Shown here in pieces: positions 1,060 to 25,493 of a stretch of 64,000 bases of DNA. The position numbers and the translations under genes were made by a program. The notes beneath the pieces were generated by a model, which ran no database searches, was not told where the DNA came from, and worked only from the letters and a program-made list of their open reading frames with translations. The stretch comes from a virus, in IMG/VR virus record IMGVR_UViG_3300029922_000003; one strand, written 5' to 3'. Position 1 is the stretch's first letter. Every line of letters begins with the position of its first letter.

Positions 1060-1569
1060 TTAGTCTGTATCTTGTGATACTAAATCCATGTTTGCATCAC
1101 ACGACTCACCGATTGCATCACGCACTTCACGTCGTAAATGACTATATGTAATACGACTCAACTTCATAGATCTTGTTTGTGGTTTTACCTCGAGCAGGTA
1201 AGTCTCATTAGCTCTGTACCTAAACGACACTAGGGATAGTTTTGTATTGGTTATAGCAGCCAACCTAGTCACTACTCTATGTGGAAATCCTTCTCTGGTA
1301 ATGAATGTATGAATCTTTCCGTGTACATTCCACGCTCCCCGAGTAGACACATATCTGCACCCCCACTGTTCCATTCTGGCTTCATACTCTTGATGCACTA
1401 TGGCGAATGGGTTTACCACAGTTCGCTTGATGGCATGAAAATCCAAATCATCTCTAGGACCCCTAAGATAAGTGGGCGACAATATATCCCGCAAGTTCGC
1501 AAAATCAATATAAAACCCAAAGGACATCAGTGCATTTACATAAACAGCATTAATATTGGGGTTATTCAT
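1060..1569 (-). CDS. Orphan member of the WGC paralog family (array at 13820-19000)
   Basis: Motifs YVNAL, LDFHAIK, EQWGCR, FITREGFPHRVVTRLAA match the array consensus. Confidence 0.75.
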   Translation of the reverse strand: MNNPNINAVYVNALMSFGFYIDFANLRDILSPTYLRGPRDDLDFHAIKRTVVNPFAIVHQEYEARMEQWGCRYVSTRGAWNVHGKIHTFITREGFPHRVVTRLAAITNTKLSLVSFRYRANETYLLEVKPQTRSMKLSRITYSHLRREVRDAIGESCDANMDLVSQDTD

Positions 1570-1750
1570 TTTCAATGTGGACATCAAAGCTCTCGACATT
1601 GGCTCGCATCTCATCTGTATTAGACTCGAACTCTGCGACCTTCTTCTTCATAGCTTCAATGATTGCTTTTTTGGAACATTTGTTAATTTGTCTGCTGCAC
1701 CCGACGACCTCAAAGGCCATCAGGCAAGCATGGTTGTATTTAGTCTTCAT
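1562..1750 (-). CDS. Hypothetical protein
   Basis: Small ORF whose stop overlaps the downstream start. Confidence 0.45.
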   Translation of the reverse strand: MKTKYNHACLMAFEVVGCSRQINKCSKKAIIEAMKKKVAEFESNTDEMRANVESFDVHIENE

Positions 1751-5478: not shown

Positions 5479-5479
5479 G

Positions 5480-6076: not shown

Positions 6077-6083
6077 GGTATTG

Positions 6084-6374: not shown

Positions 6375-6427
6375 ATTAGTTGATTGTTGTCTCCCTCTAG
6401 AATAGAGGGAGGTGTTTAGTTATTGTA

Positions 6428-7225: not shown

Positions 7226-7260
7226 ATCACTTCTCCTTGTTGATTGTTATTTGCATAGTA

Positions 7261-7593
7261 CTATGGTACAGTTTGATAGATGTCCGTAAGTAACTCAGCT
7301 GCCCTCTTCTCGATAAGCTCGAGCAGCCCTAGGGCACTCTCGTAGTATCCACTGTGTACAGCTGAATAGAACTTTCCTCCCAAATCAGCCAAGTCCTTAT
7401 CCCGAGGCATGCCAGAAGTATCTCGTGGGATCTGATCACATTGGTTGCCACAGGCACAAGTGACCCAATTTACAGCCATCTCTGACTTCTTATACCGATC
7501 CATGCGAGTTGGACTCTTTCTTACTGCAGCCTCCAACCATTCCTTCCAATTGAACTTGGACATTTGTTTGCTCTCTGCGTATGTTTTCCCCAT
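7261..7593 (-). CDS. WVTCACGNQC family protein, copy 5
   Basis: FNW...WVTCACGNQC..IPR..G.P.D..L..LG..F...IE.RAAEL. Confidence 0.8.
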   Translation of the reverse strand: MGKTYAESKQMSKFNWKEWLEAAVRKSPTRMDRYKKSEMAVNWVTCACGNQCDQIPRDTSGMPRDKDLADLGGKFYSAVHSGYYESALGLLELIEKRAAELLTDIYQTVP

Positions 7594-7609
7594 ATCACTC
7601 CTTTAGTTG

Positions 7610-7978
7610 TTACTCCAGCCTTAGAACCTTATCCGCTATCTTTCGGAATAAGCTCCTTTGATTCAGTATTACAGCAGATCGCTCTTCGATCATACAAAGT
7701 ACTCTCTTGGCCCTTCCCCATTTGCAGGTAAAGATGTGGCGTGCAAACTCTGAACCCAAATCCATCAGAAGCCAATCATCAGGCATACCCTTCTTGTCTC
7801 TTGGAATAGCTGCACATTGATTACCACAAGCACAAGTAACCCAGCTCAAAGCCTTGTCGATTGCGAACTCATACTCGAACCTGTGAGAGTCCTGGGTGTA
7901 CTTGCCAGCGACTGCCTTTGCCAAGAAGGATGTCCAATTGATTGTACCTTTCAGTTTCTTTTGTGAATAGGTAATCAT
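7610..7978 (-). CDS. WVTCACGNQC family protein, copy 4
   Basis: WVTCACGNQCAAIPRD motif. Confidence 0.8.
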   Translation of the reverse strand: MITYSQKKLKGTINWTSFLAKAVAGKYTQDSHRFEYEFAIDKALSWVTCACGNQCAAIPRDKKGMPDDWLLMDLGSEFARHIFTCKWGRAKRVLCMIEERSAVILNQRSLFRKIADKVLRLE

Positions 7979-8415
7979 TGAATTTCCAATTCGTACCCAA
8001 TCTCTGCTAGAGACTCGGCAGCTTCTTTGATCCTTCTCTCAACCTCTTTACTGATGAGTTTGGCAGAACACTTCTCAATCTTGGATAGCGCGGATTTTGC
8101 CCCTTTCCACTGCCCATTTTTGATTGCCTGGTAGAATTTTGTTCCCAAATGACGCAGCTCTTCATCGAGTGGTCGTCCATCATACGAATCTCTTGGGATG
8201 ATTGCACACTGATTTCCACAGGAACAGGTAACCCAGCTCTTAGCCCTCTCCGCTGCAATGTGGCACTCCCTATCCCAAGGACTATCAAAGTCCAGGTTAG
8301 TAGGAAATACCCTTTTATCCGCGATCACTTTATCCAGCCACTCGTTCCAATTAAATGGCTTGCAACCACAGGCCTCTGCATAGGTGATATCTTTCTTGTT
8401 CTTTGTTTTCTTCAT
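7975..8415 (-). CDS. WVTCACGNQC family protein, copy 3
   Basis: WVTCSCGNQCAIIPRD motif. Confidence 0.8.
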   Translation of the reverse strand: MKKTKNKKDITYAEACGCKPFNWNEWLDKVIADKRVFPTNLDFDSPWDRECHIAAERAKSWVTCSCGNQCAIIPRDSYDGRPLDEELRHLGTKFYQAIKNGQWKGAKSALSKIEKCSAKLISKEVERRIKEAAESLAEIGYELEIQ

Positions 8416-8428
8416 GTTGTTTGAATGG

Positions 8429-8842
8429 TTAATCTTCTATTTGTAGTTCGTACCCAGCTAAGGCAAGAAGCCTTGCTGCTTCTTTCTTGTTGCTGTTGGT
8501 GGCCCTTTGAGTCAGCTCAGCAGAGCGTCTCTCAATAATGCCAAGGATCCTTTGTGCTGTTTTGTAATTGTAGCTTTGTACCGCCTCCGTAAAATCCAGG
8601 CCTAGAGCCAGAAGTGTCTCGTCCACTGGTGTTCCATCCCCATGCCTTGGAATGACTGCACACTGATTTCCACAAGCACAGGTTATCCAATTTGCGGACT
8701 TACTGGATAGTTCGTATTCTTGGGCCACCCTCACGGCTTCACCATCATGAGTTCCAATCAGGTAGTCCAGAACTGAATGCCAGTCGAATGACTCACACTG
8801 GCGAGTTTCTGAGTATGTCCTTACAAATATATGCTTATTCAT
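8429..8842 (-). CDS. WVTCACGNQC family protein, copy 2
   Basis: WITCACGNQCAVIPRH motif. Confidence 0.8.
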   Translation of the reverse strand: MNKHIFVRTYSETRQCESFDWHSVLDYLIGTHDGEAVRVAQEYELSSKSANWITCACGNQCAVIPRHGDGTPVDETLLALGLDFTEAVQSYNYKTAQRILGIIERRSAELTQRATNSNKKEAARLLALAGYELQIED

Positions 8843-8844
8843 AA

Positions 8845-9219
8845 TCAGAGTACGTTGCTCAGGATTCTCCTGATTATCCCCTGTTCTTTGATTAGCTTTG
8901 CCGACCTCTCCTCAATCTCCATTAGGATACATTTAGCGTTCTGCCACCTACCTTCGTTGATAGAATGACTGAAGCGAATCCCAAGAATAAGTAACTTTTT
9001 GTCCTCTGGTGCACCCTCAGTATTCCTCCTAGGGATTACTGAACATTGATTTCCACAAGCACAGGTTACCCAGCTAGAAGCTTGAGCACTTGCTATTCTA
9101 TACAGTGGATGAAATGTTATTTCGTCTGCGTATACAGGGATTTCTTCTTTTATTGCCCTATCGATGAACTCGTTCCAATCAAACTCAGGCAGTCCACATT
9201 TCTTTGTATATGTTCTCAT
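8845..9219 (-). CDS. WVTCACGNQC family protein, copy 1
   Basis: WVTCACGNQCSVIPRR motif. Confidence 0.8.
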   Translation of the reverse strand: MRTYTKKCGLPEFDWNEFIDRAIKEEIPVYADEITFHPLYRIASAQASSWVTCACGNQCSVIPRRNTEGAPEDKKLLILGIRFSHSINEGRWQNAKCILMEIEERSAKLIKEQGIIRRILSNVL

Positions 9220-12588: not shown

Positions 12589-12612
12589 GGTCCATGGGAA
12601 TTCCCATGGACC
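12589..12612. repeat. Perfect 24-bp palindrome
   Basis: GGTCCATGGGAA|TTCCCATGGACC in a 59-bp intergenic gap. Confidence 0.9.
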
Positions 12613-12625
12613 CATTGGATGTTAA

Positions 12626-13786
12626 TTAGCTAGCTGGTACTACACCTTCAGTCCCGTACAGGATCTGCTCCAAGGTGGTGTCGGAGTGAGTTGCAATGTA
12701 GTTTGTAATAGCTACAATGCTTTGCAGTGGGGCGTGGTAGTCGCTATAAAGAGCTGTAAAGCTGGTATTAGCTTCCTTATTCCCCAACTGCAATACCTCA
12801 TTGGCATATACAGTGAGCATCTGAACATGGACCTCAAAATGATCTAAGAACTCCACAATCACAGGGGATTCAAAGCTCAGATCATATCTGGGGCCAAGGC
12901 CACGAAATACACCATCGTTGTAGATCGTAGAGAAAGCATCAGTGATCAAAAAGACACTATACATGATCTCTTTGCAGCACTGGTGAATCTCCTCTTCCGA
13001 GATGGGAGAATCAAAGTGTCGATTACCAGACACCAACTCCACAAGGTCTGCAACAGCATCCATGAGAGTAAGTGACCACCGAAGCCGCTTCTTGTACTGA
13101 GTCTCGCTGGATGAGGTCGACACTCTCAACTTAGCAATTAGAGCGTAGTAAGGTACCCCCTCAAGCCTGAAGTATTTTTCTCCTGGACCAGAGTATCCGG
13201 CCTTTACCTGAGTCATGCCCGAACCCCCAAACATGTGATCGTCGACAGTACTTCCAATTTCCACCCTCTCCTCTCCGACCTGAACACCATTCTCATAGAT
13301 TGGTATAACCTCGTACACCGCCTCGCTTTCAGGAGTGTTTAGGATGAGCTGATATGCTTCATCAACAAGGTTCTTCACATTAGCGCAGCGCTCGTAGTCA
13401 TTGTCTTCCATAAGAATGACAGTACGATTGAAGTCTGCATAGATGAAGTCTTCCAACACAGAGATCACATCCTCAATCTCCAAGTATGAGAACCCTGGAA
13501 TCTCAATTACAAGGTTGGTGTCCATCGATATGACGATCTCAATCCTTGGATCCGTTTGGAAGGTGGCATCAATACTCTCACAGACTCTCTGCAGCAGATG
13601 CTCCTTGCACCCCTCTTCATCACGGATATCCAACGGCTTGAGTTCCACCTGGGTGACTTCACCCACCTCCACCACAGCCGTCTCTGTTGTTGCAGTAGCG
13701 GCAGGTTTCCCTACCGCATTTTTATCATCCACCTTGGCATCCTTGCCTTTGGTGTCTTTCTTTTGTTTTTCTTGTGCGGTTGCCAT
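12626..13786 (-). CDS. Hypothetical acidic protein with Lys-rich N-terminus
   Basis: 386-aa ORF; no recognised motif. Confidence 0.75.
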   Translation of the reverse strand: MATAQEKQKKDTKGKDAKVDDKNAVGKPAATATTETAVVEVGEVTQVELKPLDIRDEEGCKEHLLQRVCESIDATFQTDPRIEIVISMDTNLVIEIPGFSYLEIEDVISVLEDFIYADFNRTVILMEDNDYERCANVKNLVDEAYQLILNTPESEAVYEVIPIYENGVQVGEERVEIGSTVDDHMFGGSGMTQVKAGYSGPGEKYFRLEGVPYYALIAKLRVSTSSSETQYKKRLRWSLTLMDAVADLVELVSGNRHFDSPISEEEIHQCCKEIMYSVFLITDAFSTIYNDGVFRGLGPRYDLSFESPVIVEFLDHFEVHVQMLTVYANEVLQLGNKEANTSFTALYSDYHAPLQSIVAITNYIATHSDTTLEQILYGTEGVVPAS

Positions 13787-13819
13787 AGTTGTTCTTTTGG
13801 TTAGTTGTTTGTTTTTTAA

Positions 13820-14308
13820 TTAAAAATAATTGATATTAGCTCCATACATGTTGCTGATTATTCGCCTTATGACAATATCAACACTCCTGTAATCTATTGA
13901 TAGCGTACGCACCATTCTATTTCTTGGTCTGACACTTAACCGATAAGTCTCATCAGGCCTTGCATTTGGCCTATATGAAACCATATCAATAGGTAAATTA
14001 ATTATGGCTGCTAATCTGGTCATTACTTTGTGTGGAGTTCCACCCTTAGTAATGCATGCCCATACCATACCACCTTGTGATACGAAGCTATGCATAGGTA
14101 GTGATTCACACCCCCAATCTCTTAAATAAAGATCTTGCAACTGCCTATCGTCCATTAAGAATGTATCAACATCTAGTTGTTTAATTTCACCAAAAAACAT
14201 GCCATACCTCTCCTCAAACATACTTTCTGGCACTGCATCTTCAATCCTGTATGGAATTAGGTTAATAGCATCTAAAACTGTTACTGCGTTAATGTAATAA
14301 TCATTCAT
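13820..14308 (-). CDS. WGC array paralog 10 (Api92/YubB ferredoxin-like domain candidate)
   Basis: YINAV, FFGEIKQ, DWGCE, ITKGGTPHKVMTRLAA; ORF extends to 14365. Confidence 0.75.
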   Translation of the reverse strand: MNDYYINAVTVLDAINLIPYRIEDAVPESMFEERYGMFFGEIKQLDVDTFLMDDRQLQDLYLRDWGCESLPMHSFVSQGGMVWACITKGGTPHKVMTRLAAIINLPIDMVSYRPNARPDETYRLSVRPRNRMVRTLSIDYRSVDIVIRRIISNMYGANINYF

Positions 14309-14352
14309 TTGTGTTCTCCCAATTACCCCAAGTAGCCATAGTTCTGTGCGTC

Positions 14353-14898
14353 CTAAAGCGACCACGCCGTTGCATAGCGTTCCGAATAGTAGTGTCTGGG
14401 GGTGATGGGAGTTCGGAAGTTTTCAGTCCAACGCTCCCTATTCCTATCTAACTCGACTTGAAACGTATCAATGGAATCCCTTGACAACAAGTCATCGCCC
14501 ACTAAACGCAAGTTCATCCTTGCCCTGAATGGATTTACGAAAAGATGGTAGTAATCATTTATATTTTCTGCACTCTTAGAGACCATATTCACCTCAACGT
14601 TCTTTAGTGCAGCAACCCTAGAGAACACCTTTGTGGGTATTCCACCCTGAGTTCTGAACACCATTCTAGTCCCACCAATCAGCATCCGAGCCCTAATCCC
14701 GTCTGATCTACACCCCCACTTGCTGAAAGCGTCCTCAAGTAGTTGATCATAAGGCAAAGTTAATAATGGCTTTATGCGGTAAAATGCGATCAATAAATCG
14801 TCATTCATAAACTCCCCAATGACATCACGCACAAGGGGAATAGACGTATTTCTTGATCTAAAGCTAACTATATTTACAAACATTGTTTCGTTATTCAT
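14353..14898 (-). CDS. WGC array paralog 9
   Basis: FVNIV, IAFYRIKP, KWGCR, FRTQGGIPTKVFSRVAA. Confidence 0.75.
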   Translation of the reverse strand: MNNETMFVNIVSFRSRNTSIPLVRDVIGEFMNDDLLIAFYRIKPLLTLPYDQLLEDAFSKWGCRSDGIRARMLIGGTRMVFRTQGGIPTKVFSRVAALKNVEVNMVSKSAENINDYYHLFVNPFRARMNLRLVGDDLLSRDSIDTFQVELDRNRERWTENFRTPITPRHYYSERYATAWSL

Positions 14899-15442
14899 CC
14901 GGTTCTTCTGGTCCTTCTGGTTCTTGTGCCAGCTCCTCATCATATTGATTGATTAGATTATCTAGTGCGACAACATGGGGCTCTGGTAACTGCTCCCACT
15001 CCCTCTCCATAATTCTGTACAGCCTGGCAGATGGAAATATAAGGGTCTCATAGTATCGCCCAGTATCATAGCAATAAGTATACATCTGCAAGTCGCGCAT
15101 ACAAAAAGTAGCCATCTTTTGAATGACCTTAATCGCTGCACCACCCCGTGTTCTCATTGCCAACATCTTGGGATCGTTAGGGTCTATATACGACGCCATA
15201 GCATTCGCTGTGGCCCCCCACCTATCAAAAACGAACTCTTCCTGATTGCGCCACGGCAAACCTATTATTTCATTTATGTATATTGGGACGACATCGCTGA
15301 AGTCTATAGGGTTTTCACTATTAAGATAACTCCCAATAGCATCTCGGATGGGAACAGCTATTACCCCGTATTGCAGATTGCCGAGGTAGGTACTTGAACC
15401 AAGAGAAAATACACTTAAGTAATTTTTATTATCCGTATCCAT
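14891..15442 (-). CDS. WGC array paralog 8
   Basis: IDFSDVVP, RWGAT, MRTRGGAAIKVIQKMA. Confidence 0.75.
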   Translation of the reverse strand: MDTDNKNYLSVFSLGSSTYLGNLQYGVIAVPIRDAIGSYLNSENPIDFSDVVPIYINEIIGLPWRNQEEFVFDRWGATANAMASYIDPNDPKMLAMRTRGGAAIKVIQKMATFCMRDLQMYTYCYDTGRYYETLIFPSARLYRIMEREWEQLPEPHVVALDNLINQYDEELAQEPEGPEEPDE

Positions 15443-15450
15443 ATATAATA

Positions 15451-15927
15451 TTAGTTATCGGCCCTCGATAGAGTGTTTTGGAGCTTCTCACGAATCTGAT
15501 TGGGAAGGGTATACCCTTGTATCTGGATAAGCCGATGCCGTCTTTCGTATGGCTTAACAGAATATTTGTAATAATCGTTTGACCCATATGCTCTAAAATA
15601 TAATCCAATATAATTGTTAGTAATAGCTGCTAGTCTTGACATTACCTTGGTAGGTACTCCATCCCGAGTGGCAAATGCTAGTGAGTATGGATCATCATAC
15701 TCCGTAAAAAATTCCGGTGTGGTCCCACACCCCCAATGACCAACAAAATAATCATAAATCCCTCCCAGTGGAATTTCCTGTAAAAGTACGTCACGGGGTT
15801 TTATAGCGTCAAAGTCAATAATATTTCGTGGAGTGTGAGTGAACACACTAGGGAACTGCTCCCTTATATTAATTAACTGGGGGGTGAGGTGTGTGTACCT
15901 CATCTCCAATAAATTTGCATATATCAT
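15451..15927 (-). CDS. WGC array paralog 7
   Basis: YANLL, IDFDAIKP, HWGCG, FATRDGVPTKVMSRLAA. Confidence 0.75.
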   Translation of the reverse strand: MIYANLLEMRYTHLTPQLINIREQFPSVFTHTPRNIIDFDAIKPRDVLLQEIPLGGIYDYFVGHWGCGTTPEFFTEYDDPYSLAFATRDGVPTKVMSRLAAITNNYIGLYFRAYGSNDYYKYSVKPYERRHRLIQIQGYTLPNQIREKLQNTLSRADN

Positions 15928-15942
15928 ATTTTTTAAAATTGT

Positions 15943-16395
15943 TTACATCACTAATCTTTGTATCATACGATAACATTCCACTGGAAACGAAACTGGTTGC
16001 AGCTGGCATATACTATGCTTTCTTAGATTTATTGTTATTCTGTACCTGTAGCTCTCAGTAGTGATTGAGTTGCACGAGCACAACCATATATCCTTGTTGA
16101 TGATTGCGGCTAACCTAGATATGGCCTTAATTGGCATTCCGCCACCTGTCATAAACCCATAGGTCTCTTCACCTGGCTCGTTGTTAAACTGGGGGTTTGT
16201 AGCTATAGTGTAACTTCCCCAAACGCCTAGAGCACATTCCGTCCTTGAATATCCTGGTATTTCAGGAATCTGCCGAATGCGATTAAAGTCGAGACTCTCG
16301 CCACGAAAGAACTGTGGATATTCCTGAGCTATATTTATTTTCTCTGGTCCACCTGAGTGGGCCCAAACTATAAGTGCATTTTTAAAAATCTGCAT
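15943..16395 (-). CDS. WGC array paralog 6
   Basis: FKNAL, LDFNRIR, VWGSY, FMTGGGMPIKAISRLAA. Confidence 0.75.
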   Translation of the reverse strand: MQIFKNALIVWAHSGGPEKINIAQEYPQFFRGESLDFNRIRQIPEIPGYSRTECALGVWGSYTIATNPQFNNEPGEETYGFMTGGGMPIKAISRLAAIINKDIWLCSCNSITTESYRYRITINLRKHSICQLQPVSFPVECYRMIQRLVM

Positions 16396-16909
16396 TTGTT
16401 CTTATATTTTCTGGTTCTGTATCCCCATCCCGCATAAACAAACCAATCATATCCTGCATTGCTGAAAACACGCGGGTAGGTATCCTATACGCATTATTTC
16501 TATGAAAGCTTTGCTGTCGTGTGTTTGGGTTGACAAGAAACGCAAAATGCTCGTCTACGTCGCTATACCAAGACCACATACCAATTGTACGATTAATCAA
16601 AGCAGACAGCCTTGATATAACTCTTGTTGGAGGAAAACACTCTGTCTGAAATGACAGGACTTTGGGGTTCCCTCTGCCAACATCACTGAGTCTAAAGAAG
16701 TTCCCGGCGTTGGCGCACCCCCACTGATCAATCAAATCCTGTGGGGTGACAAGATCAACATTGGATAACGGCTTAATATTGCTAAACAAAAGCGCACAGT
16801 CATTCCTATATGTTGATGGTATAGCCTCCAGGATAGGGGCGTATTGTGTAGGAAAGTCACCACCATCTAAGCTAACTGACAATGCATTAATTACTATTCT
16901 ATTCCTCAT
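16382..16909 (-). CDS. WGC array paralog 5
   Basis: VINAL, LLFSNIKP, QWGCA, FQTECFPPTRVISRLS. Confidence 0.75.
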   Translation of the reverse strand: MRNRIVINALSVSLDGGDFPTQYAPILEAIPSTYRNDCALLFSNIKPLSNVDLVTPQDLIDQWGCANAGNFFRLSDVGRGNPKVLSFQTECFPPTRVISRLSALINRTIGMWSWYSDVDEHFAFLVNPNTRQQSFHRNNAYRIPTRVFSAMQDMIGLFMRDGDTEPENIRTNADF

Positions 16910-16956
16910 GTTAAGTTGTGTTGTGTATTACCACTTTGTTTTAATAACTTATATAT

Positions 16957-17448
16957 TTATTGGCGAACATTTCTTGTGATGTCGATTCCTAGCAACTGAA
17001 GACGCCGCACTATGGCATTTTCGGTTTTTGCGCTTAATACCCCAAAAACGACTATATTACATTTGTATCTCCTTTCTCTTGGCTTATACACATGTTGATA
17101 TATATTCCCAGAATCTGGATAATATGATGTCATAATAATATCCATCCTAAGCTGGGCAGATAGTTTTGATATTACCATCCATGGTACTCCATCCGCTGTT
17201 TGAAATGTCAGTCGGTCCGGGTGGGTCCCTTCATTTAAAGCAAAGTTCATGCCGCCCCCACAGCACCCCCAGTTCCTCATCATCCAACTCCCTATTTCAA
17301 TGGGTCTCATGAAGACATCATTTGGTATTGGCTTCAAATCGTCAAACAATACTTGACCATTTCTAAAAAATTCTCCTAGCCCCTCTCTGATGTTAATTAC
17401 ATTTCCATGTCCATCCCATACCGAAAGTACATTAATTATTGTGTTCAC
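16957..17448 (-). CDS. WGC array paralog 4
   Basis: AGGAGG SD plus GTG start; IINVL, VLFDDLKP, NWGCC, FQTADGVPWMVISKLS. Confidence 0.75.
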   Translation of the reverse strand: MNTIINVLSVWDGHGNVINIREGLGEFFRNGQVLFDDLKPIPNDVFMRPIEIGSWMMRNWGCCGGGMNFALNEGTHPDRLTFQTADGVPWMVISKLSAQLRMDIIMTSYYPDSGNIYQHVYKPRERRYKCNIVVFGVLSAKTENAIVRRLQLLGIDITRNVRQ

Positions 17449-17531
17449 GCTGGTCCTCCTATTTAAAAATTAAATGGTGGGGCATCCCTACCCCAAATCC
17501 CTAAATACATCTGAAAAAGTTTCTTCCATAT

Positions 17532-18008
17532 TTAATCAGCCGGTGGTGTGGCTCTTAATCGCTCTTCAATAGCGGCTCTAGTTTGATTAGAAAGATACAA
17601 CAAATCTGGTATTTTTCTGCACCAATACAACCTATTAGCTGGATCAAATGATTGATAATAGATGTCTCTAGATGTACAAAAATATGACACTAACTCTATA
17701 TTCTTTTGGGTTAATACAGAAAGTCTAGAAATCACCTTGTTGGCAGTTCCATTGTGTGTATCAAAGGTCAATCGAGTGCCTATATTATTAATAACAAAAT
17801 TATCTCCAGATCCACTAGATCCCCAATGCATATGTATTAAGTCCTCAATATCTTCTGGCCGACCCCAAGGTGTATACTGTATTGGCTTTACTCGTCCAAA
17901 ATCTATTCTATTGTTACTATAGTACTCACCTAGCGCATCTATGATTTGAACAAACCCATCATTTTCGCTATGGGACATTAAGACGTTAATAACTCTTGTT
18001 GTTCTCAT
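17532..18008 (-). CDS. WGC array paralog 3
   Basis: VINVL, IDFGRVKP, HWGSS, FDTHNGTANKVISRLS. Confidence 0.75.
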   Translation of the reverse strand: MRTTRVINVLMSHSENDGFVQIIDALGEYYSNNRIDFGRVKPIQYTPWGRPEDIEDLIHMHWGSSGSGDNFVINNIGTRLTFDTHNGTANKVISRLSVLTQKNIELVSYFCTSRDIYYQSFDPANRLYWCRKIPDLLYLSNQTRAAIEERLRATPPAD

Positions 18009-18469
18009 GCTGGAGCTAATGGGCATAGGCGTCGCCGGAATGCTGACGGAATATCTAAGACGTTTAGAATCCTAGAAAAAGATTGCTGCCTAATTGCTGG
18101 CAGAGTCTCAAAAACATAGCAACTATCACTGTCTGAATACCTAGAGAACAATTTAGCAACAAGTCTCTTTTGCGCAGAGATCCTTGATATTATCTTTGTT
18201 GGAATTCCGCCAATTGTCGTAAACTCCAGGGCTCTGCCACCGCAAATTATTCTAAAGGCATTGCCAGTTACCTGGCAACCCCAGTTTTCCATGTTCCATT
18301 CCCGTAGATCTTCAATGGTCCCAATAGTACGCCAATCTACTGGTTTTACGCTATTGAAATCAATGCAGCCATGTCGGTCCATGTACTCACCTAAAGCATT
18401 TTGTACCCCAAGCGCCTCTCCTGCTAATGGAGAGTAAATAACTAAAACATTTAAAAAATAATAATTCAT
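18005..18469 (-). CDS. WGC array paralog 2
   Basis: FLNVL, IDFNSVKP, WNMENWGC, FTTIGGIPTKIISRIS. Confidence 0.75.
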   Translation of the reverse strand: MNYYFLNVLVIYSPLAGEALGVQNALGEYMDRHGCIDFNSVKPVDWRTIGTIEDLREWNMENWGCQVTGNAFRIICGGRALEFTTIGGIPTKIISRISAQKRLVAKLFSRYSDSDSCYVFETLPAIRQQSFSRILNVLDIPSAFRRRLCPLAPA

Positions 18470-18484
18470 TATGTGTAAGATTTT

Positions 18485-19000
18485 CTACTCGTCTTCTTCT
18501 ACATCTTCCTCTGCATCACCGTCATCGTCCCCATTCTCATTGTCCTCATACCGCAGGTCTTCATCCAGGTCATAAATTCGTCCTGCAATATCCGCAGGTA
18601 CATCCTCATTATCGATCTCGGAAATTTTTTGCAACCGACTAAAGGGGTTTACTTCTGTTAAAAAGTGTTCATCCGTATGTCGAAAGTAAGAATACATTTT
18701 TAGTTTTCTTTGCACCAGAACAGCTAATCTGGAAATAACCTTAGTTGGAATTCCTCCATCAGTGCAGAATATAATTTTCTTCCCTGAATCAAATTGACTC
18801 TGCCTTTCTGGTGCGAAATAACACCCCCAATTGTTCATATTCCACATCATTACCTCATCAAATCGCATTACTGGGGGCTGTGGCTTAATCTGATGAAAAG
18901 CTATATATCCATCTGCAGTTATATACGGATAGCACTCCCGTGTTAGTTGTGTGTGACCGCCCGTCCTGGTTCTACCAATAAGTGAATTTATGATTTCCAT
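18485..19000 (-). CDS. WGC array paralog 1, acidic tail
   Basis: IINSL, IAFHQIKP, WNMNNWGC, FCTDGGIPTKVISRLA; D/E-rich C-terminus. Confidence 0.75.
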   Translation of the reverse strand: MEIINSLIGRTRTGGHTQLTRECYPYITADGYIAFHQIKPQPPVMRFDEVMMWNMNNWGCYFAPERQSQFDSGKKIIFCTDGGIPTKVISRLAVLVQRKLKMYSYFRHTDEHFLTEVNPFSRLQKISEIDNEDVPADIAGRIYDLDEDLRYEDNENGDDDGDAEEDVEEDE

Positions 19001-19113
19001 CTTCCCTTAAGTTAACACTCTAATTATCTGTTGAGAGCACGCTCGTAAGCACGACCCCTCATGTCTAAAAGGTCCATCAAAATAGGCCCGTGAATAAAAT
19101 TTGCATGTATTTT

Positions 19114-19368
19114 CTACTTTGCATCCTCTTTGTTCTTCCTCCTTAGTGGGCCATACTCTTCCTTAATCTTCCTGAGAGCTACTGGGTCGTGCTTTTCAAG
19201 CTCCTCTGAGAGCTTGTGATTAAACTCTCCCAACCTATGTAGGCTATTCTTTAGCGCATCAATTGTATTGTGTAGTTGTTGAATTCCAAACATATGTTTT
19301 GTTTTTAGCCTCTGGTAATAATTCTGGATTTCTCCACCGTCGCCTCTTCTTTCTGAGAAGTAATCCAA
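19114..19368 (-). CDS. Hypothetical coiled-coil protein
   Basis: 84-aa ORF. Confidence 0.5.
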   Translation of the reverse strand: MDYFSERRGDGGEIQNYYQRLKTKHMFGIQQLHNTIDALKNSLHRLGEFNHKLSEELEKHDPVALRKIKEEYGPLRRKNKEDAK

Positions 19369-19592
19369 TCCACAAGATCCTGTGGGTCCTCAAAAGAATT
19401 TGTCATAGACGAAGCTACAACTGCAACTGTCTCGTACCCATCTTTTGTGCTATATACAAGCAGCGCCAGGGTGGGATCATTTGTACTAGGCTTCATTAGT
19501 ACCGTCTGGAATCCATTGGACTTCAAGAAGTCAATTAGCTCTACTCCATTGCCTTCTGGCTCTTTGGTTTCTGCTGTTTCTATATCGCTCAT
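19305..19592 (-). CDS. Hypothetical protein
   Basis: 95-aa ORF with A-rich leader. Confidence 0.55.
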   Translation of the reverse strand: MSDIETAETKEPEGNGVELIDFLKSNGFQTVLMKPSTNDPTLALLVYSTKDGYETVAVVASSMTNSFEDPQDLVDWITSQKEEATVEKSRIITRG

Positions 19593-21804: not shown

Positions 21805-21981
21805 TTACTGCCAGTTGGGCTTTGATGAAAAGATCCAAATTACGCAAAGATAAATAATAGCAACCACTAGAGTTACTACCATTATCCAAAAGTCCTCCTT
21901 CTTGCCCCTATACTTCATGGGACAAGGACAAGTAGAGACTCCGCTAGTAACTCTGTAGGAGCCAGGACAAGGGCCATGCAT
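21805..21981 (-). CDS. Small membrane protein
   Basis: Cys-containing N-terminus then a TM helix. Confidence 0.4.
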   Translation of the reverse strand: MHGPCPGSYRVTSGVSTCPCPMKYRGKKEDFWIMVVTLVVAIIYLCVIWIFSSKPNWQ

Positions 21982-22313
21982 TCCTCTAGGGAGGCTTCCC
22001 AAACAAAATTCTTAACCCCCTGACTTCTCCAGGGAGCAATCTTGAGGTTCTCCGCTAGGTGCACAAGGAATTGCTCTCTTTGCCAATCAGGAAGGCTGGT
22101 AGCAAGTTCAATGATTGCATCTCTGTCTTCCATATAATCTGGAATCTCTGCTGGAAATGTCATCTTGGATCTCGGTGCATATATAGGATGATACCCATAA
22201 GAAACAAGAGAATCTGGATCCTCAGCGTCCTCTGGAGGAGTCCTCCATGTAATCTCCCAGCAATCAAACTTAGCTATTCTTTCATTCTTCTGACTTTGTG
22301 TTTCTATTTCCAC
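21915..22313 (-). CDS. Hypothetical protein
   Basis: Probable GTG start overlapping the upstream stop; IPDY..D..A motif. Confidence 0.6.
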   Translation of the reverse strand: MEIETQSQKNERIAKFDCWEITWRTPPEDAEDPDSLVSYGYHPIYAPRSKMTFPAEIPDYMEDRDAIIELATSLPDWQREQFLVHLAENLKIAPWRSQGVKNFVWEASLEECMALVLAPTELLAESLLVLVP

Positions 22314-22576
22314 TTTTTTACGAGTTCGGGGTTGTTGGCACACCAGAATGCAAGTGCCCATCTCTGCTTCTTTGAGAGTGGGTGCCTCCATGTTCTGATA
22401 CTAATTATCTTGGGTTCTGAAGCTTGCTCGCAAGCATCCTTCAGTTTTTCGTCATCGAAATAGATATAATGCCTAGCATCTATCTTGTCCTAGGTCTTCC
22501 ATATTCTTGTAATACAAGCTCGTTTTATCAACCTATCACTATAGGCATCTCCATAATGGTCAAAGCAATCACTCAT
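22304..22576 (-). pseudogene. 90-codon ORF interrupted by one in-frame TAG at 22490-22492
   Basis: MSDCFDHYGDAYSDRLIKRACITRIWKT*DKIDARHYIYFDDEKL...LSKKQRWALAFWC...KKWK*; exactly fills the gap between genes. Confidence 0.5.
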
Positions 22577-22592
22577 AATTTTTGAAAGTTGA

Positions 22593-22618
22593 GGGTCCCA
22601 CAGTTTCCTGTGGGGCCC
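22593..22618 (-). terminator. GC-rich hairpin downstream of NAMPT-like gene
   Basis: GGGCCCCACAG-GAAA-CTGTGGGACCC on minus strand; weak U-tract. Confidence 0.4.
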
Positions 22619-22647
22619 AGTAATATTTAAGGATAATCTAAGTCGTC

Positions 22648-24123
22648 CTAGAATTCCTTATGAAGTCTCGCCCTAATCTCCGTCAGAGATTGGTCAACAA
22701 ATAGTTGCCCATCCTCGTAAACCCGATTATAGGCACAGTTCTTGACTTCATCCCAGGATACCTGGTCTTTCTGATAGAACTTACCATTCTCATCCTGGTA
22801 GACAGCGATCAACCCCTTGGCTGACTTCTTGAGTTTTGCGGTGTCCGTCTTGGGGTCCTTGAAGATTTCCCTTGGCTCTCCATTAACCTCCACATACGTA
22901 CTCTTGACAGCCCAACCATCTGTGTCACGACTTACGCCATAAACCAGATAGTAGGATCCAATCCCGTACACGATATTGGTACTTGCGAACCCCTTAGCCT
23001 TCAATCCTTCGCAGATTGCCAACAAGACCTTGCGGTTAACTCCATCACCAAGAATCGTTCCAACATGTGGATCCAACTCCTTAAACCCAAGATCATTGAC
23101 CGTTCCACCAAAGATATCCCAAAGGAGTTCTATGGTTCCCTTATTCTCGGGCGAGCCCTCTGGAGCATCTGGGTCTCCAACGATGATCTTGACGTTGTCT
23201 CCACTATCAGGTCGGAAAACCAACTTACCATCACGTTTCAATATGGTTTCTTTTAGCCGGATAGCAAAGTCAGAAAGAGTCTTCCAGTAATCAGTAGTGT
23301 CACTGATGTAGCTGAAAATCCCCGTAGGGTAAACATCCTCAATGAGATGTCTCAGAGCCTCGAACTCGTCTCCTCCATAAGAGCAAATCACGGCGTGCTC
23401 CGAAGCAGCTACCGAAACAGTGATCAACTCCTTGTCGGAATCTCCGTTGTAATATTCCTCAATGAAATCAATCCCAGGAACCGTGTCGGATCCAGCAAAA
23501 GATGTCAAGAATCCGGCATCAGCCATGACCGCAGCTTCGTGACCGAAGCAGCCCCTGTAGCTAAAGTTGTGCCCCTGGAACTTTACAAACCCAATATTTC
23601 CAACTGTTTCCATTGCATACTTCTCGAGCACCTTCCTGATCTCCAAGGCAGTGGTCGCCGTTGTTGCAATGGGCCATGTGGATGTAGAAAGGATTGTTTC
23701 GATGTACGCCTGGAACCATCCAAACCTAGTGTCGGTTGTCCAATACACAAATGGTGCTACACCATATGGGACAATAGACCCCTCAGGGAGACTATAGAAT
23801 GCCAATGGGATGTGCCCCAAGTCATGCAAGGCCTCGATGTGTTCTTGACCGACACTATTTGGACCAAGGTAGTTATTAATCCTCCTTGTGTACCGGGCGA
23901 CCACCTCTTCCTTAGGCTTAGCGAAGAAGTTGGTATTCCAAAGGCCAATAAGGATCTCCTTCAGGAAGTATTGTAGTCCAACGGCCACAACTCCATCCGG
24001 TACGACCTCTCTGTATGACTTTCGAGGCGTCATATTACCAAAGGACAGGCTAAGTCCTGGGACTAATTGCTGCCTGTGTCCGGTTTTATAACCATCAATC
24101 AGCGTTTCTGGACTCTTTTTCAT
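22648..24123 (-). CDS. nadV: Nicotinamide phosphoribosyltransferase-like protein (NAMPT/NadV; possibly Namat of NARP1)
   Basis: DGYKTGH, HNFSYRG, AASEHAV, SYISDT.D, VFRPDSGD, GDG, GIGSY, KDPKTD..KKSAKG. Confidence 0.92.
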   Translation of the reverse strand: MKKSPETLIDGYKTGHRQQLVPGLSLSFGNMTPRKSYREVVPDGVVAVGLQYFLKEILIGLWNTNFFAKPKEEVVARYTRRINNYLGPNSVGQEHIEALHDLGHIPLAFYSLPEGSIVPYGVAPFVYWTTDTRFGWFQAYIETILSTSTWPIATTATTALEIRKVLEKYAMETVGNIGFVKFQGHNFSYRGCFGHEAAVMADAGFLTSFAGSDTVPGIDFIEEYYNGDSDKELITVSVAASEHAVICSYGGDEFEALRHLIEDVYPTGIFSYISDTTDYWKTLSDFAIRLKETILKRDGKLVFRPDSGDNVKIIVGDPDAPEGSPENKGTIELLWDIFGGTVNDLGFKELDPHVGTILGDGVNRKVLLAICEGLKAKGFASTNIVYGIGSYYLVYGVSRDTDGWAVKSTYVEVNGEPREIFKDPKTDTAKLKKSAKGLIAVYQDENGKFYQKDQVSWDEVKNCAYNRVYEDGQLFVDQSLTEIRARLHKEF

Positions 24124-24565
24124 ATTTTTGTTGTTGTAGTTTCGATACCTTAATTGATTGGACAAGCGAGTTTAGTGTGTCGTACGCTTGTCCGAGTCCT
24201 GCTCTGTCATCTAGGAAGATATTGTAATATATCTTACCTCCAGCGTTGATCTCACCACCCTTGGTGAAGTCAACTACATCCTCGTTTATCCCATCGATCT
24301 TGATCCCTATTTCCTCGCAGTGCTTCCTAATGAAAGCATGCCGGCTCTTGGGACTAGACGAGAATATAACTACCTTGAAACCAAGTTCGTTACAGTCTTT
24401 GATCAAACTAATGACGTTGTCAAAGATGTACCCCTTGTTGTGAAAGTCGTAGATTGTATTGTCAAAATCCACTGCGACGACTAAGGACTCGTGTCTCCTG
24501 TAGTCGTTTAACAATCGATTATAACACTCCACTGCCGACAAGAATGGGTCGGTTATTCTACGCAC
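24095..24565 (-). CDS. HAD-superfamily hydrolase-like protein
   Basis: Motif I VAVDFDNTI, motif II FSS, GKIY, motif IV FLDDRAG. Confidence 0.75.
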   Translation of the reverse strand: MRRITDPFLSAVECYNRLLNDYRRHESLVVAVDFDNTIYDFHNKGYIFDNVISLIKDCNELGFKVVIFSSSPKSRHAFIRKHCEEIGIKIDGINEDVVDFTKGGEINAGGKIYYNIFLDDRAGLGQAYDTLNSLVQSIKVSKLQQQKYEKESRNAD

Positions 24566-25463
24566 TTAATATGGAATTGTGTTTACTCAACTCAACTACG
24601 CTGAGCCCGTACGTTTTGACGAAATCCTCAGGGAAGTCCTGATACGAATCTGTCGTCCAGATCTCGTCGATGCCATTTTCCAGAAGCACCTGGACACCCT
24701 TGGAAAAGATTCCATGGGTAACATAGAGAATTACCCTTCCTGCATTCTTTTTCTTTAGCTCCTGAGCCAAAGCTATGAACGTAGCACCTCCATCGCATAT
24801 GTCGTCGACGATCATGATGTCCTTCTTCTCGAGATCATCAGCATACACAATCATTTCCTTGATCTTACCATTGGTAAGGTCGCGTAGCTTGTCAGCTCTG
24901 ATGAACTCAGGGTGTCCAAGAGAAGCCGCCAGGTCAGAGACCTTCTTGTTCGCTCCTGCATCAGGAGAGACAAGGGTAACTCCAGTGAACGCTCTCTGAT
25001 AGAGCTCACGGCTACCCCTGAAGATTGTCTTCAGGTCGACAACCTTAACTCTCTGGATCAGTGCCTCAGTGACACTACTGTGTGGATCAAAGGTATATAC
25101 CCTCTTGAACCCCAGTGAATTGAGAATCCCTGCAAATGCCTTTAGACTAAATGCCTCTCCTCCGTCGCAGATCCTGTCCTGACGCCCATAGGGGACATAT
25201 GCCAAGAACAACTCAACCTGAGCATGGTTGCAGATGCGATATAGAGCATCCCGTACCATAACAAGCTTCATGAAGTCTTCGGAAGACTTGATGCGAGAAT
25301 ACACAGAGCCACCCAGGCTCTGGAAGTCCGCTACGAACCGGTGGTTGTCGGTATCGATCTTGATCCCGACCTCGCCACCTGGGAAGACGAATTGCTTACA
25401 TTCGACTTCTACCACGTTTGCTGTTGAACCGACATTGCCCGCTGCAATAACTAAGTCTTTCAT
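24558..25463 (-). CDS. prs: Ribose-phosphate pyrophosphokinase-like protein (Prs; possibly Adps of NARP1)
   Basis: FPGGEV, YVPYGRQDR, FDPHS, VSPDAGA, K.RD, IVDDICDGGATF, VTHGIFSKG. Confidence 0.9.
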   Translation of the reverse strand: MKDLVIAAGNVGSTANVVEVECKQFVFPGGEVGIKIDTDNHRFVADFQSLGGSVYSRIKSSEDFMKLVMVRDALYRICNHAQVELFLAYVPYGRQDRICDGGEAFSLKAFAGILNSLGFKRVYTFDPHSSVTEALIQRVKVVDLKTIFRGSRELYQRAFTGVTLVSPDAGANKKVSDLAASLGHPEFIRADKLRDLTNGKIKEMIVYADDLEKKDIMIVDDICDGGATFIALAQELKKKNAGRVILYVTHGIFSKGVQVLLENGIDEIWTTDSYQDFPEDFVKTYGLSVVELSKHNSILSA

Positions 25464-25493
25464 TGTGTGTTTTGTATGTTGTGTGTTGCGTTG

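What the first reader, a model, noticed from the sequence alone, without database searches (positions are those of the whole stretch)
13820..19000. Ten-gene tandem array of hyper-diverged paralogs (candidate Api92/YubB ferredoxin-like effector bank)
Seen: ten consecutive 150-185 aa genes, AT-richer than their flanks. Nearly all carry N-x-L near the start, then (I/L)-x-F-x-x-(I/V)-K-P, WG(C/S/A), F-x-T-x-x-G-x-P-x-K-V-(I/M)-S-R-L and a final aromatic/P strand pair, but little identity elsewhere. Established: the DUF1281/Api92-like (YubB) ferredoxin-like domain has an FDFxxIIP / WxxxNWGTKW / FxTAWSPP pattern and occurs in mobile-element polyvalent proteins. Inference: a derived subfamily (WGTKW to WGC, TAWSPP to TxGGxP) kept as a repertoire of variants, each perhaps binding a different host defence protein. 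I know of no described array of this size.
Basis: partly seen in the sequence, partly recalled or inferred. Interest (0 to 1): 0.8.

Follow-up and report, generated by a model that had tools for sequence, protein, structure and literature searches.

The report
Ten-copy YubB/Api92-like gene array in phage
An uncultured phage of about 190 kb carries ten tandem, highly diverged copies (twelve in the 75.7 kb examined) of a small protein family that is common on plasmids and viruses but has no known function, and the copies change fast in a few surface segments, as expected for proteins that bind host factors.

Summary
Ten co-oriented minus-strand genes (150-183 aa, 13820-19000) are true paralogs (leave-one-out HMM E 1e-17 to 1e-31). 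The array is the AT-richest stretch of the window. Two more copies lie downstream, at window 1060-1614 and just left of the window.

The family guess also holds. No copy reaches Pfam PF18406 directly. However, the profile of the ten finds PF18406 proteins in 1.84 billion sequences, hhalign gives 99.1%, and two AlphaFold models (pLDDT 96 and 89) have Api92 (PDB 2IJR) as sole top PDB match (Z 8.8 and 8.4; next 4.7 and 5.2).

New here:
- 80 viral loci with a canonical member each hold one copy.
- A syntenic sister phage holds two copies in the same slot.
- The ten-gene array is invariant across near-identical strain contigs.
- Strain polymorphisms concentrate in the array and are mostly nonsynonymous (91:15 against 19:14 in flanking genes, p=0.001). 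They cluster in the beta1-alpha1 loop and the C-terminal strands and tail, while the core motifs never vary.

The function is not shown. The family is uncharacterised, and Samuel et al. 2024 list it among plasmid leading-region families. My best reading (about 0.45) is a bank of non-enzymatic binders of host, probably defence, proteins. This scan has noted DUF1281 genes on other DNA before (251 notes, including one tandem pair).

The parts
18485..19000 (-). Paralog 10 (first gene of the array), 171 aa, pI 4.5, acidic D/E tail
   Evidence: ORF; aligned in A1; leave-one-out HMM E 1.5e-27; pI
18005..18469 (-). Paralog 9, 154 aa; the copy that was modelled
   Evidence: AlphaFold2 pLDDT 96, pTM 0.90. 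Api92 2ijr_A is the sole top PDB match: Z 8.8, rmsd 3.0, 128 residues aligned. The identical protein is on 22 or more contigs, the longest 186,740 bp.
17532..18008 (-). Paralog 8, 158 aa from the ATG at 18008 (ATGA overlap with the stop of paralog 9); 164 aa if started at 18026
   Evidence: gene callers use the 158-aa start. Sister of paralog 7 in the tree (95/87). A strain variant (L001, 94.8% nt identity) differs at 18 residues, mostly at aa 21-28, 54-62 and 128-163.
16957..17448 (-). Paralog 7, 163 aa (GTG start, AGGAGG Shine-Dalgarno upstream)
   Evidence: BLASTP against paralog 8 E 6e-21; allelic patches at aa 122-125 and 151-164
16382..16909 (-). Paralog 6, 175 aa
   Evidence: In strain L005, 9 substitutions within 23 nt change residues 13-20 (the beta1-alpha1 loop), all nonsynonymous.
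15943..16395 (-). Paralog 5, 150 aa (WGS variant of the motif)
   Evidence: leave-one-out E 5e-17
15451..15927 (-). Paralog 4, 158 aa
   Evidence: leave-one-out E 7.5e-28
14891..15442 (-). Paralog 3, 183 aa, the most divergent copy (WGA; insertion after beta1; acidic tail; pI 4.35)
   Evidence: AlphaFold2 pLDDT 89. 2ijr_A is again the sole top match: Z 8.4, 135 residues aligned, next Z 5.2.
14353..14898 (-). Paralog 2, 181 aa (the ORF extends to 14943; the alignment favours the ATG at 14898)
   Evidence: Strain L017 carries a heavily substituted allele (94.7% nt identity, aa 33-59 and 116-125) with an in-frame insertion.
13820..14308 (-). Paralog 1 (last gene of the array), 162 aa
   Evidence: It groups with the two dispersed copies (98/93 and 98/89). 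It shares a 47-of-48-nt tract with the 12th copy, although the two genes are 58% identical overall.
1060..1614 (-). Dispersed 11th paralog (184-aa ORF; likely start at the MNNPNINAV methionine near 1569)
   Evidence: HMM of the ten, E 1.3e-31; recovered as P0011
12626..13786 (-). Conserved 386-aa gene of unknown function just downstream; marks the syntenic slot
   Evidence: 37% identical ortholog directly after the two-copy array in the sister phage; no Pfam or PHROG match
19305..19592 (-). Conserved 95-aa gene upstream; the other anchor of the slot
   Evidence: 54-58% identical ortholog directly before the two-copy array in L003/L104

Best explanation
The region is a lineage-specific expansion of one small alpha/beta scaffold. 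The scaffold is the minimal, single-domain form of the Api92/YubB (DUF1281_C) ferredoxin-like fold: ten tandem copies, plus two dispersed copies downstream. The phage is uncultured, about 190 kb, with a DnaE-type polymerase. That much is shown. The rest is inferred. I read the proteins as non-enzymatic binders. A conserved core (beta1 Asn, DF..KP, WG, F.T, GG.P.KVISRLA helix) holds the fold. The beta1-alpha1 loop, the beta5-beta6 hairpin and the C-terminal helix or tail form a changeable surface. Each paralog would recognise a different host protein, most likely a component of host immunity or another entry barrier, and block or divert it. The array would then be a standing repertoire that grows and shrinks by local duplication (2 copies in a sister phage, 10 here) and is refreshed by allelic patch exchange and occasional micro gene conversion.
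For: Family and fold:
- The profile of the ten, run against 1.84e9 proteins, returns only this phage's copies, a pair from a sister phage, and then PNW..DFxKIIP..NWGTKW..FxTAWSPP proteins. Eight of the ten of those hits that I scanned match PF18406 at or above its gathering score.
- hhalign probability is 99.1%, E 8.5e-19.
- Api92 2IJR is the sole top PDB match for two models, Z 8.8 and 8.4.
- BFVD hits are 'YubB ferredoxin-like domain' proteins, E down to 1.6e-8. The ESM Atlas structure search agrees.

Non-enzymatic scaffold:
- The only family-wide invariant residues are W-G, and the nearly invariant ones are N, F, F and T.
- The residue after WG is T, C, S or A, so there is no conserved nucleophile, acid or base.

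Diversified partners:
- pI ranges from 4.35 to 9.43 among the paralogs.
- Identity is 17-37% although every ORF is intact on 24 or more contigs.

Arms-race signature:
- Strain polymorphisms are 91 nonsynonymous to 15 synonymous in the array (pN/pS 1.65; 2.4 on contigs that span both regions).
- Flanking genes show 19:14 (pN/pS 0.37). Fisher p=0.001.
- Hot spots are the beta1-alpha1 loop (1.56 sites per residue), beta6 and the C-terminus (1.0-1.26). There are no changes in GG.P plus helix 3.

Copy-number dynamics:
- A syntenic sister phage has 2 copies in the same slot.
- 80 of 80 other viral loci have 1 copy.

Context:
- The family is a large 'uncharacterized' leading-region family, 1949 members in Samuel et al. 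2024, PMC11541004 supplement 3.
- It sits beside ssb, DUF4313 and LPD11 on a Bacteroides plasmid, and it is fused to LPD28.
- It lies in the small-gene block ahead of the replication genes of phage HMO-2011.
- The window also carries a PRTase (Prs-like) gene and an NAPRTase/NAMPT gene, which an unchecked first-reader note reads as an NAD-reconstitution counter-defence module.
Against: - No member of the family has a tested function, so 'binder of defence proteins' rests on association and evolutionary pattern only.
- The family's spread to giant viruses and polinton-like viruses of eukaryotes fits a universal target, such as nucleic acid or a nucleotide, better than specific bacterial immune proteins.
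- pN/pS above 1 is only marginally above neutrality (binomial p=0.04).
- The variants come from metagenome assemblies. Many sit in multi-substitution patches that are probably single recombination events, so the counts are not independent.
- Expression timing is unknown. The sigma-70-type promoter scan found no more sites than chance.
- I could not map the sites on 3D coordinates, only on secondary-structure segments.
- The host is unknown.
Confidence: 0.45

Rival explanations
1. The family and fold are the same, but the function is a conserved entry or establishment task on a universal substrate: binding or protecting incoming nucleic acid through the RRM-like sheet of the ferredoxin fold. 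The paralogs would reflect subfunctionalisation, dosage or hetero-oligomer formation rather than different host targets.
For: The family occurs in phages, plasmids, ICEs, giant viruses and polinton-like viruses, which argues for a target common to all cells. The fold is ferredoxin-like, with weak resemblance to RNA- and DNA-binding ferredoxin domains such as RNase P subunits and Cas2 (Z about 4-5). The motif face is invariant even between strains. On plasmids the gene sits next to ssb.
Against: Canonical members are strongly acidic (pI 4.0-4.9) and the paralogs range from pI 4.35 to 9.43, which is unlike a shared nucleic-acid-binding surface. The nonsynonymous excess and hypervariable patches are not expected for a housekeeping role. 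The norm elsewhere is a single copy.
Confidence: 0.2
2. The proteins are small-molecule sponges or sensors. The conserved N/D-F/W-G/T cluster would form a pocket for a nucleotide-type immune signal or metabolite, as in ACT/RAM/PII-like ferredoxin domains, and the paralogs would be tuned to different ligands.
For: Low-Z structural neighbours include ligand-binding ferredoxin-like domains such as ACT, Lrp/AsnC RAM, CutA1 and MTH1187 (Z 3.6-4.3). Conserved aromatic and polar residues persist without a catalytic set. The phage invests in NAD-related functions: it encodes a nicotinamide phosphoribosyltransferase and a PRTase, and an unchecked first-reader note reads these as NAD-reconstitution counter-defence.
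Against: Those matches are at background level (Z below 5), and only Api92 stands out. Variation lies in loops and the C-terminal tail rather than around the conserved cluster. Ten different ligands is a large number. No ligand is reported for Api92 in what I could read.
Confidence: 0.1
3. The proteins are packaged in the virion and ejected with the DNA, like the T4 internal proteins or the solo forms of polyvalent-protein domains. They would act at the very first moment of infection. This concerns delivery and is compatible with either a binder or a nucleic-acid role.
For: Relatives are fused to LPD28, a polyvalent-protein domain. Iyer et al. 2017 (PMC5512222) propose that such proteins travel with the DNA and that solo LPD domains act as early facilitators. 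In Ralstonia phage RP12 the family member lies among virion structural genes.
Against: Here the array lies among non-structural accessory genes (PhoH, NAMPT, release-factor-like), not next to head genes. No shared N-terminal targeting or cleavage motif is seen, because the N-terminus is beta1 of the fold. Plasmid members are genes of the leading region, so they are made after entry.
Confidence: 0.1
4. The array is a by-product of duplication-prone replication in a paralog-rich phage, with copies drifting under relaxed constraint and having no individual function.
For: The same phage has other tandem families: five Cys-motif genes at 7261-9219 and three collagen-like genes, according to unchecked first-reader notes. 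pN/pS near or above 1 is also what relaxed constraint gives.
Against: All twelve ORFs are intact, and the ten-gene array is intact and identical in order on all contigs that span it. The paralogs are anciently diverged (branch lengths 1-2.4 substitutions per site), yet each keeps the core motifs and models confidently. No strain polymorphism touches GG.P plus helix 3. Only one frameshift is seen, and it affects only the C-terminal tail of one allele.
Confidence: 0.05

Closest known systems
Api92 of the Yersinia pseudotuberculosis adhesion pathogenicity island (PDB 2IJR; Pfam DUF1281 PF06924 + DUF1281_C PF18406)
   Same: Same fold. It is the only PDB chain that stands out for both models (Z 8.8 with 128 residues aligned, and Z 8.4 with 135). 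The order of secondary-structure elements is the same, and it is encoded on a mobile element.
   Different: Api92 has 282 residues, with large insertions and an N-terminal region scored by PF06924. The phage proteins are 150-183 aa, 7-10% identical to it, and match neither Pfam model directly. Api92 itself has no known function.
YubB / YccB / YfdA / YfaB 'YubB ferredoxin-like domain-containing' proteins of conjugative-plasmid leading regions (family 27 in Samuel et al. 2024, PMC11541004, supplementary file 3)
   Same: Homologous domain. Both are carried by invading DNA next to establishment or anti-restriction genes. Both are uncharacterised.
   Different: The plasmid forms are single copy and long, about 300 aa with PF06924. 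They are acidic and Trp/Cys-rich, with NWGTKW and TAWSPP motifs. The phage subfamily has WG(C/S/A) and T.GG.P, a mixed pI, and 10+2 copies.
Short viral YubB-like proteins (for example HMO-2011 gp06, P-HM1 PHM1_061, Ralstonia phage RP12 ORF032; giant-virus and polinton-like-virus members)
   Same: Same domain in stand-alone form, about 150-250 aa, in viruses. These are the nearest architectural equivalents.
   Different: They have one copy per locus: 80 of 80 IMG/VR loci and one in each cultured-phage region fetched. They keep the canonical NWGTKW and TAWSPP motifs and pass PF18406.
Expanded fast-evolving host-interaction gene families of viruses (poxvirus gene 'accordions', T4 internal proteins IPI-III, phage anti-defence islands). 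This comparison rests on my own knowledge, not on a tool result.
   Same: Tandem duplication at one locus, copy-number change between relatives, an excess of amino-acid change in surface segments, and location among accessory genes.
   Different: The paralogs here are ancient (17-37% identity), not recent amplifications. No target is known. The scaffold family is different.

Membership tests
Api92/YubB ferredoxin-like family (Pfam PF18406 DUF1281_C) | Direct match to the Pfam PF18406 HMM at or above its gathering score (22.8 bits) | tested here: not met
   None of the ten matches PF18406 even at E<=1. They are therefore outside the curated Pfam family as now defined. I claim homology as a derived subfamily, not Pfam-threshold membership.
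Api92/YubB ferredoxin-like family (Pfam PF18406 DUF1281_C) | Significant profile-level homology to proteins that do match PF18406 | tested here: met
   The HMM of the ten finds such proteins at E 1e-8 to 1e-4 in 1.84e9 sequences. Of the ten hits scanned, eight match PF18406 at or above the 22.8-bit cut-off, E down to 2.8e-14. hhalign of A1 against 25 canonical members gives 99.1%, E 8.5e-19 over 108 columns, and 16 of those 25 match PF18406. Caveat: the canonical set was picked by the A1 search.
Api92/YubB ferredoxin-like family (Pfam PF18406 DUF1281_C) | Same three-dimensional fold as the solved family member Api92 (PDB 2IJR) | tested here: met
   Paralog 9 model (pLDDT 96): 2ijr_A Z 8.8, rmsd 3.0, 128 aligned, next best Z 4.7. 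Paralog 3 model (pLDDT 89): Z 8.4, 135 aligned, next 5.2. Foldseek against PDB is weaker (E 0.025, prob 0.93). BFVD YubB proteins match at E 1.6e-8 to 1e-5.
Api92/YubB ferredoxin-like family (Pfam PF18406 DUF1281_C) | Signature motifs: (P)N..N in beta1, DFxKIIPxP, NWGTKW, FxTAWSPPxPVI | tested here: inconclusive
   The positions are kept but the motifs are altered. N7, F of DF, W-G and T are invariant. TKW becomes C/S/A plus variable residues, and AWSPP becomes xGGxP. The same columns align in the joint alignment A2.
DUF1281 proper (Pfam PF06924; long enterobacterial/Vibrio form) | N-terminal region of about 177 residues matching PF06924 | tested here: not met
   No PF06924 match in any paralog. 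The Vibrio plasmid homolog has it at E 2e-36. The phage proteins are the short form.
Polyvalent proteins (Iyer et al. 2017, PMC5512222) | Two to fifteen conflict-related domains fused in one polypeptide | tested here: not met
   Each paralog is a single domain that fills the whole ORF. Only distant relatives (P0040, P0042) carry a fused LPD28 domain.
Experimentally defined anti-defence proteins | Demonstrated inhibition of a defence system or binding to one of its components | not testable with these tools
   No function is reported for any family member in the papers held. The host is unknown.

The most novel reading that the evidence does not exclude
The array is a germline-encoded repertoire built on one scaffold. 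The YubB/Api92 fold would act as a general-purpose binder. Its beta1-alpha1 loop and C-terminal hairpin or tail would be under positive selection. The number of copies in a fixed genomic slot would expand and contract (2 to 10) as the phage meets different host immune proteins. If so, this would give the first functional handle on DUF1281/YubB, one of the commonest uncharacterised families in the first-transferred region of conjugative plasmids.
Probability: 0.3. Interest if true: 0.8.

Novelty: new variant of a known kind. Interest (0 to 1): 0.6.

Why it matters
DUF1281/YubB proteins are carried by thousands of conjugative plasmids (1949 members in one leading-region survey) and by many phages, giant viruses and polinton-like viruses, yet nothing is known about what they do. 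A phage that keeps twelve ancient, intact, fast-changing copies, while a related phage keeps two and other viruses one, is a natural experiment. It shows which parts of the fold are fixed and which are free to vary. It points to direct interaction with variable host factors rather than catalysis. It also offers a panel of natural variants for binding screens. If the binder-repertoire reading holds, it would change how the plasmid homologs are studied, as candidate establishment or anti-defence proteins that affect plasmid spread. It would also add a new scaffold to the known set of phage counter-defence proteins.

Tried and rejected
- **Direct family scans:** the ten paralogs gave nothing in Pfam, PHROGs, NCBIfam or PADLOC.
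- **PDB sequence searches:** profiles A1 and A2 gave only chance hits.
- **Cultured phages:** there was no nucleotide or protein match to the array.
- **IMG/VR viral contigs:** they hold no close relative of this phage. One metagenome-contig scan with the 386-aa neighbour found nothing.
- **Whole genome:** none is held for the window, so the count of twelve copies covers only 75.7 kb plus what the protein-level search of the collection shows.
- **Diversity-generating retroelement:** I considered this for the hypervariable patches and rejected it. The substitutions affect A, G, C and T alike and are mostly transitions, not adenine-specific. I did not search for a reverse transcriptase.
- **Gene conversion from another paralog as the source of the allelic patches:** no donor lies within the 75.7 kb available. 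The one clear inter-paralog tract is the 47-of-48-nt stretch shared by paralog 1 and the 12th copy.
- **Strain comparison for array content:** it gave little, because thirteen of the fifteen strain contigs compared are 99.9-100% identical to the window where they overlap it.
- **Promoter and terminator scan:** uninformative.
- **F plasmid 48-68 kb:** the A2 HMM found no hit, and the F 258-aa hypothetical has no Pfam match. I therefore did not verify the position of the gene on F myself.
- **Two profile hits:** P0021 (2930 aa, GST_C repeats) and P0032 (fibre-like) are false positives.
- **Literature:** searches for DUF1281, Api92, YubB, yccB and yfaB gave no functional study.
- **3D mapping:** I could not obtain model coordinates, so variable sites are mapped on secondary-structure segments only.

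Full report
**1. The observation**

Ten co-oriented minus-strand ORFs fill 13820-19000 with short gaps or small overlaps. With the starts favoured by the alignment and by public gene calls they encode 150-183 aa. They align end to end (A1). N7, F39, W65-G66 and T87 are invariant, and G90, P128 and R131 nearly so.

Identity is only 17-27% to the first copy and 21-37% over local BLASTP alignments. Homology is nevertheless secure. Pairwise BLASTP E-values reach 6e-21. A leave-one-out HMM of nine copies scores the tenth at 5e-17 to 2.5e-31.

The array has GC 0.406, against 0.438 and 0.437 in equal-sized flanks. It is among the two AT-richest of 295 windows of that size.

The same HMM finds an 11th copy at 1060-1614(-) (E 1e-31). 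A public contig that is 100% identical to window 1-8813 and runs on to the left carries a 12th copy (L002:10001-10486).

**2. The genome**

The window encodes a DnaE-type polymerase, a DnaB-like helicase, PhoH and a nicotinamide phosphoribosyltransferase. Its polymerase is under 30% identical to any cultured phage's. No whole genome is held.

The identical paralog 9 is on at least 24 contigs from JGI, ENA and Logan assemblies. The longest is 186,740 bp. This is therefore an uncultured phage of roughly 190 kb that recurs in many samples.

Gene leaders are A/C-rich, and most lack a Shine-Dalgarno sequence.

**3. The family**

No paralog matches Pfam, PHROGs, NCBIfam or PADLOC directly. PDB sequence profiles give nothing.

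An exhaustive HMM search of 1.84 billion representatives with the profile of the ten returns three groups:
- this phage's own copies;
- a pair from one other phage (P0013 and P0028);
- small proteins with MPNW.N, DFxKIIPxP, NWGTKW and FxTAWSPP motifs.

Of the ten hits from these groups that I scanned, eight match PF18406 (DUF1281_C, 'Ferredoxin-like domain in Api92-like protein') at or above its gathering score, with E down to 2.8e-14.

A profile-profile comparison of the ten against 25 such canonical proteins gives 99.1% probability, E 8.5e-19 over 108 columns. Sixteen of the 25 match PF18406 on their own.

AlphaFold2 with the joint alignment gives pLDDT 96 for paralog 9 and 89 for paralog 3, the most divergent copy. 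Both show the same order of elements, beta1-alpha1-alpha2-beta2-beta3-alpha3-beta4-beta5-beta6-alpha4.

Against 48,161 PDB representatives, Api92 (2IJR) is the only match that stands out:
- paralog 9: Z 8.8, rmsd 3.0, 128 residues aligned, next best Z 4.7;
- paralog 3: Z 8.4, 135 residues aligned, next best Z 5.2.

Foldseek against predicted viral structures returns 'YubB ferredoxin-like domain-containing' proteins of phages and giant viruses at E 1.6e-8 to 1e-5. The ESM Atlas structure search returns DUF1281_C clusters at TM 0.70.

By Pfam's own threshold, however, the ten are not members, and I file them as a derived subfamily.

**4. What is known about the family**

I found no functional study. 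What the sources do show:
- Samuel et al. 2024 (PMC11541004, supplementary file 3) list 'Uncharacterized; DUF1281', named YubB/YccB/YfdA/YfaB, as a leading-region gene family with 1949 members.
- On a Bacteroides plasmid the homolog follows ssb, DUF4313 and LPD11 genes.
- On a Vibrio plasmid the long form (PF06924 plus PF18406) lies near T4SS genes.
- Some relatives are fused to LPD28, a polyvalent-protein domain. Iyer et al. 2017 suggest that such domains act early in invasion.
- In phage HMO-2011 the homolog lies in the small-gene block ahead of the replication genes.
- The family also occurs in polinton-like viruses.

**5. How unusual the array is**

A pattern scan of IMG/VR found at least 569 canonical members. 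In the 80 best loci (1.11 Mb, up to 10 kb on each side), each holds exactly one copy at E<=1e-3. The cultured-phage and plasmid regions I fetched also hold one each.

The only other multi-copy case I found is the sister lineage of this phage (L003 and L104; 190,646-bp contig). It is syntenic with the window over at least 16 kb. Amino-acid identities are PhoH 38%, the 233-aa gene 34%, the 95-aa gene 54%, the 386-aa gene 37% and the 234-aa gene 68%. It has two copies in exactly the slot, between the 95-aa and 386-aa genes, where the window has ten.

In the tree the two sister-phage copies pair with each other (100/99). Paralogs 7 and 8 pair, and paralog 1 groups with the two dispersed copies. 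The rest is star-like, with branches of 1-2.4 substitutions per site. The expansion is therefore lineage-specific, local and old.

**6. Evolution within the population**

Thirteen of the fifteen strain contigs compared are 99.9-100% identical to the window where they overlap it. All contigs that span the array show the same ten genes. The array content is therefore invariant at this depth.

The few differences are concentrated in the array and are patchy. Unique changes are 91 nonsynonymous to 15 synonymous in the array (pN/pS 1.65). On contigs that span array and flanks the ratio is 52:6 (pN/pS 2.4). In 25 flanking genes it is 19:14 (pN/pS 0.37). Fisher p=0.001, and the excess over neutrality is marginal at p=0.04.

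Mapped on the common alignment, the changes fall as follows:

| Segment | Nonsynonymous sites per residue |
|---|---|
| beta1-alpha1 loop | 1.56 |
| C-terminal helix and tail | 1.26 |
| beta6 | 1.0 |
| beta5 | 0.67 |
| GG.P motif plus helix 3 | 0 (no changes in 17 residues) |

Few changes fall in beta1, alpha1, alpha2-WGC or beta4.

One allele of paralog 6 has nine substitutions in 23 nt, all nonsynonymous. These patches have no donor in the 75.7 kb available and are not adenine-biased, so neither paralog conversion nor a diversity-generating retroelement explains them.

Conversely, paralog 1 and the 12th copy share 47 of 48 nt across the GGTPHKVMTRLAAIIN motif, although they are 58% identical overall. 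This is a short gene-conversion tract.

Caveats: these are assembly consensus sequences, the counts are small, and substitutions within a patch are not independent.

**7. Mechanism**

Shown:
- a compact ferredoxin-like scaffold;
- an invariant core with no conserved catalytic set, since the residue after WG is T, C, S or A;
- pI from 4.35 to 9.43;
- hypervariable loops and tail;
- copy-number change between relatives;
- a family habit of riding on invading DNA.

Inferred: the proteins are binders whose variable surface recognises different host proteins, probably immune or entry-barrier components. I put this at about 0.45.

The main rival (0.2) is a conserved role on a universal substrate such as nucleic acid. 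The family's reach into eukaryotic viruses favours this, but the acidic and mixed charges and the nonsynonymous excess argue against it. Ligand sponge (0.1), ejected virion protein (0.1, a question of delivery rather than of target) and functionless drift (0.05) are less likely, for the reasons given under the rivals.

**8. Verdict**

- The family interpretation is supported.
- The functional interpretation is plausible but unproven.
- The thing is a new variant of a known kind: an exceptional paralog expansion of a known but uncharacterised mobile-element family.
- It is interesting mainly because it gives evolutionary evidence about how that family may work.

Noticed in passing
window 1060-1614 (-) and L002:10001-10486 (+) (1.2-1.7 kb left of the window start): There are two dispersed extra copies of the family downstream of the array. 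In the tree they group with paralog 1, the last gene of the array.
   Followed up: yes
window 13997-14044 and L002:10256-10303: A 48-nt tract is 47/48 identical between paralog 1 and the 12th copy. It encodes GGTPHKVMTRLAAIIN. The two genes are otherwise 58% identical and lie about 15.7 kb apart, so this is probably a micro gene conversion.
   Followed up: partly
window about 22528-22531; L006:4666-5938: One strain contig (L006) carries a 1.27-kb insertion with an OrfB_IS605/TnpB gene between the NAMPT gene and the 158-aa gene. The insertion is absent from the window, and its nucleotide sequence has no megablast match anywhere in the window. TnpB elements therefore seem to be moving in this phage population.
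   Followed up: partly
window about 21900-26800 compared with L104:4083-4807: The Prs-like, HAD-like and NAMPT block of the window has no counterpart in the syntenic sister phage. That phage has only two small genes between the orthologs of the flanking genes, so the NAD module is a lineage-specific accessory insert.
   Followed up: partly
window 16851-16873 (paralog 6, residues 13-20) in L005: Nine substitutions within 23 nt, all nonsynonymous, rewrite the beta1-alpha1 loop of one allele. No donor sequence was found and the changes are not adenine-specific.
   Followed up: partly
upstream of most genes in 12600-19100, for example 16910-16956 and 13787-13819: The leaders are A/C-rich (AACACAACACAAC-type). 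Most lack a Shine-Dalgarno sequence; only paralogs 7 and 10 show one. This may hint at a host that makes little use of Shine-Dalgarno pairing.
   Followed up: no
window 12626-13786 (-): A 386-aa protein with no Pfam or PHROG match is conserved at 34-37% identity in two other lineages. In the sister phage it again sits directly after the YubB-like genes. Whether it is functionally linked to them is unknown.
   Followed up: partly
L104:2534-3295: The sister phage has a gene with a faint LAGLIDADG_3 match in the region syntenic to window 26.9-27.6 kb. It may be a homing endonuclease.
   Followed up: no
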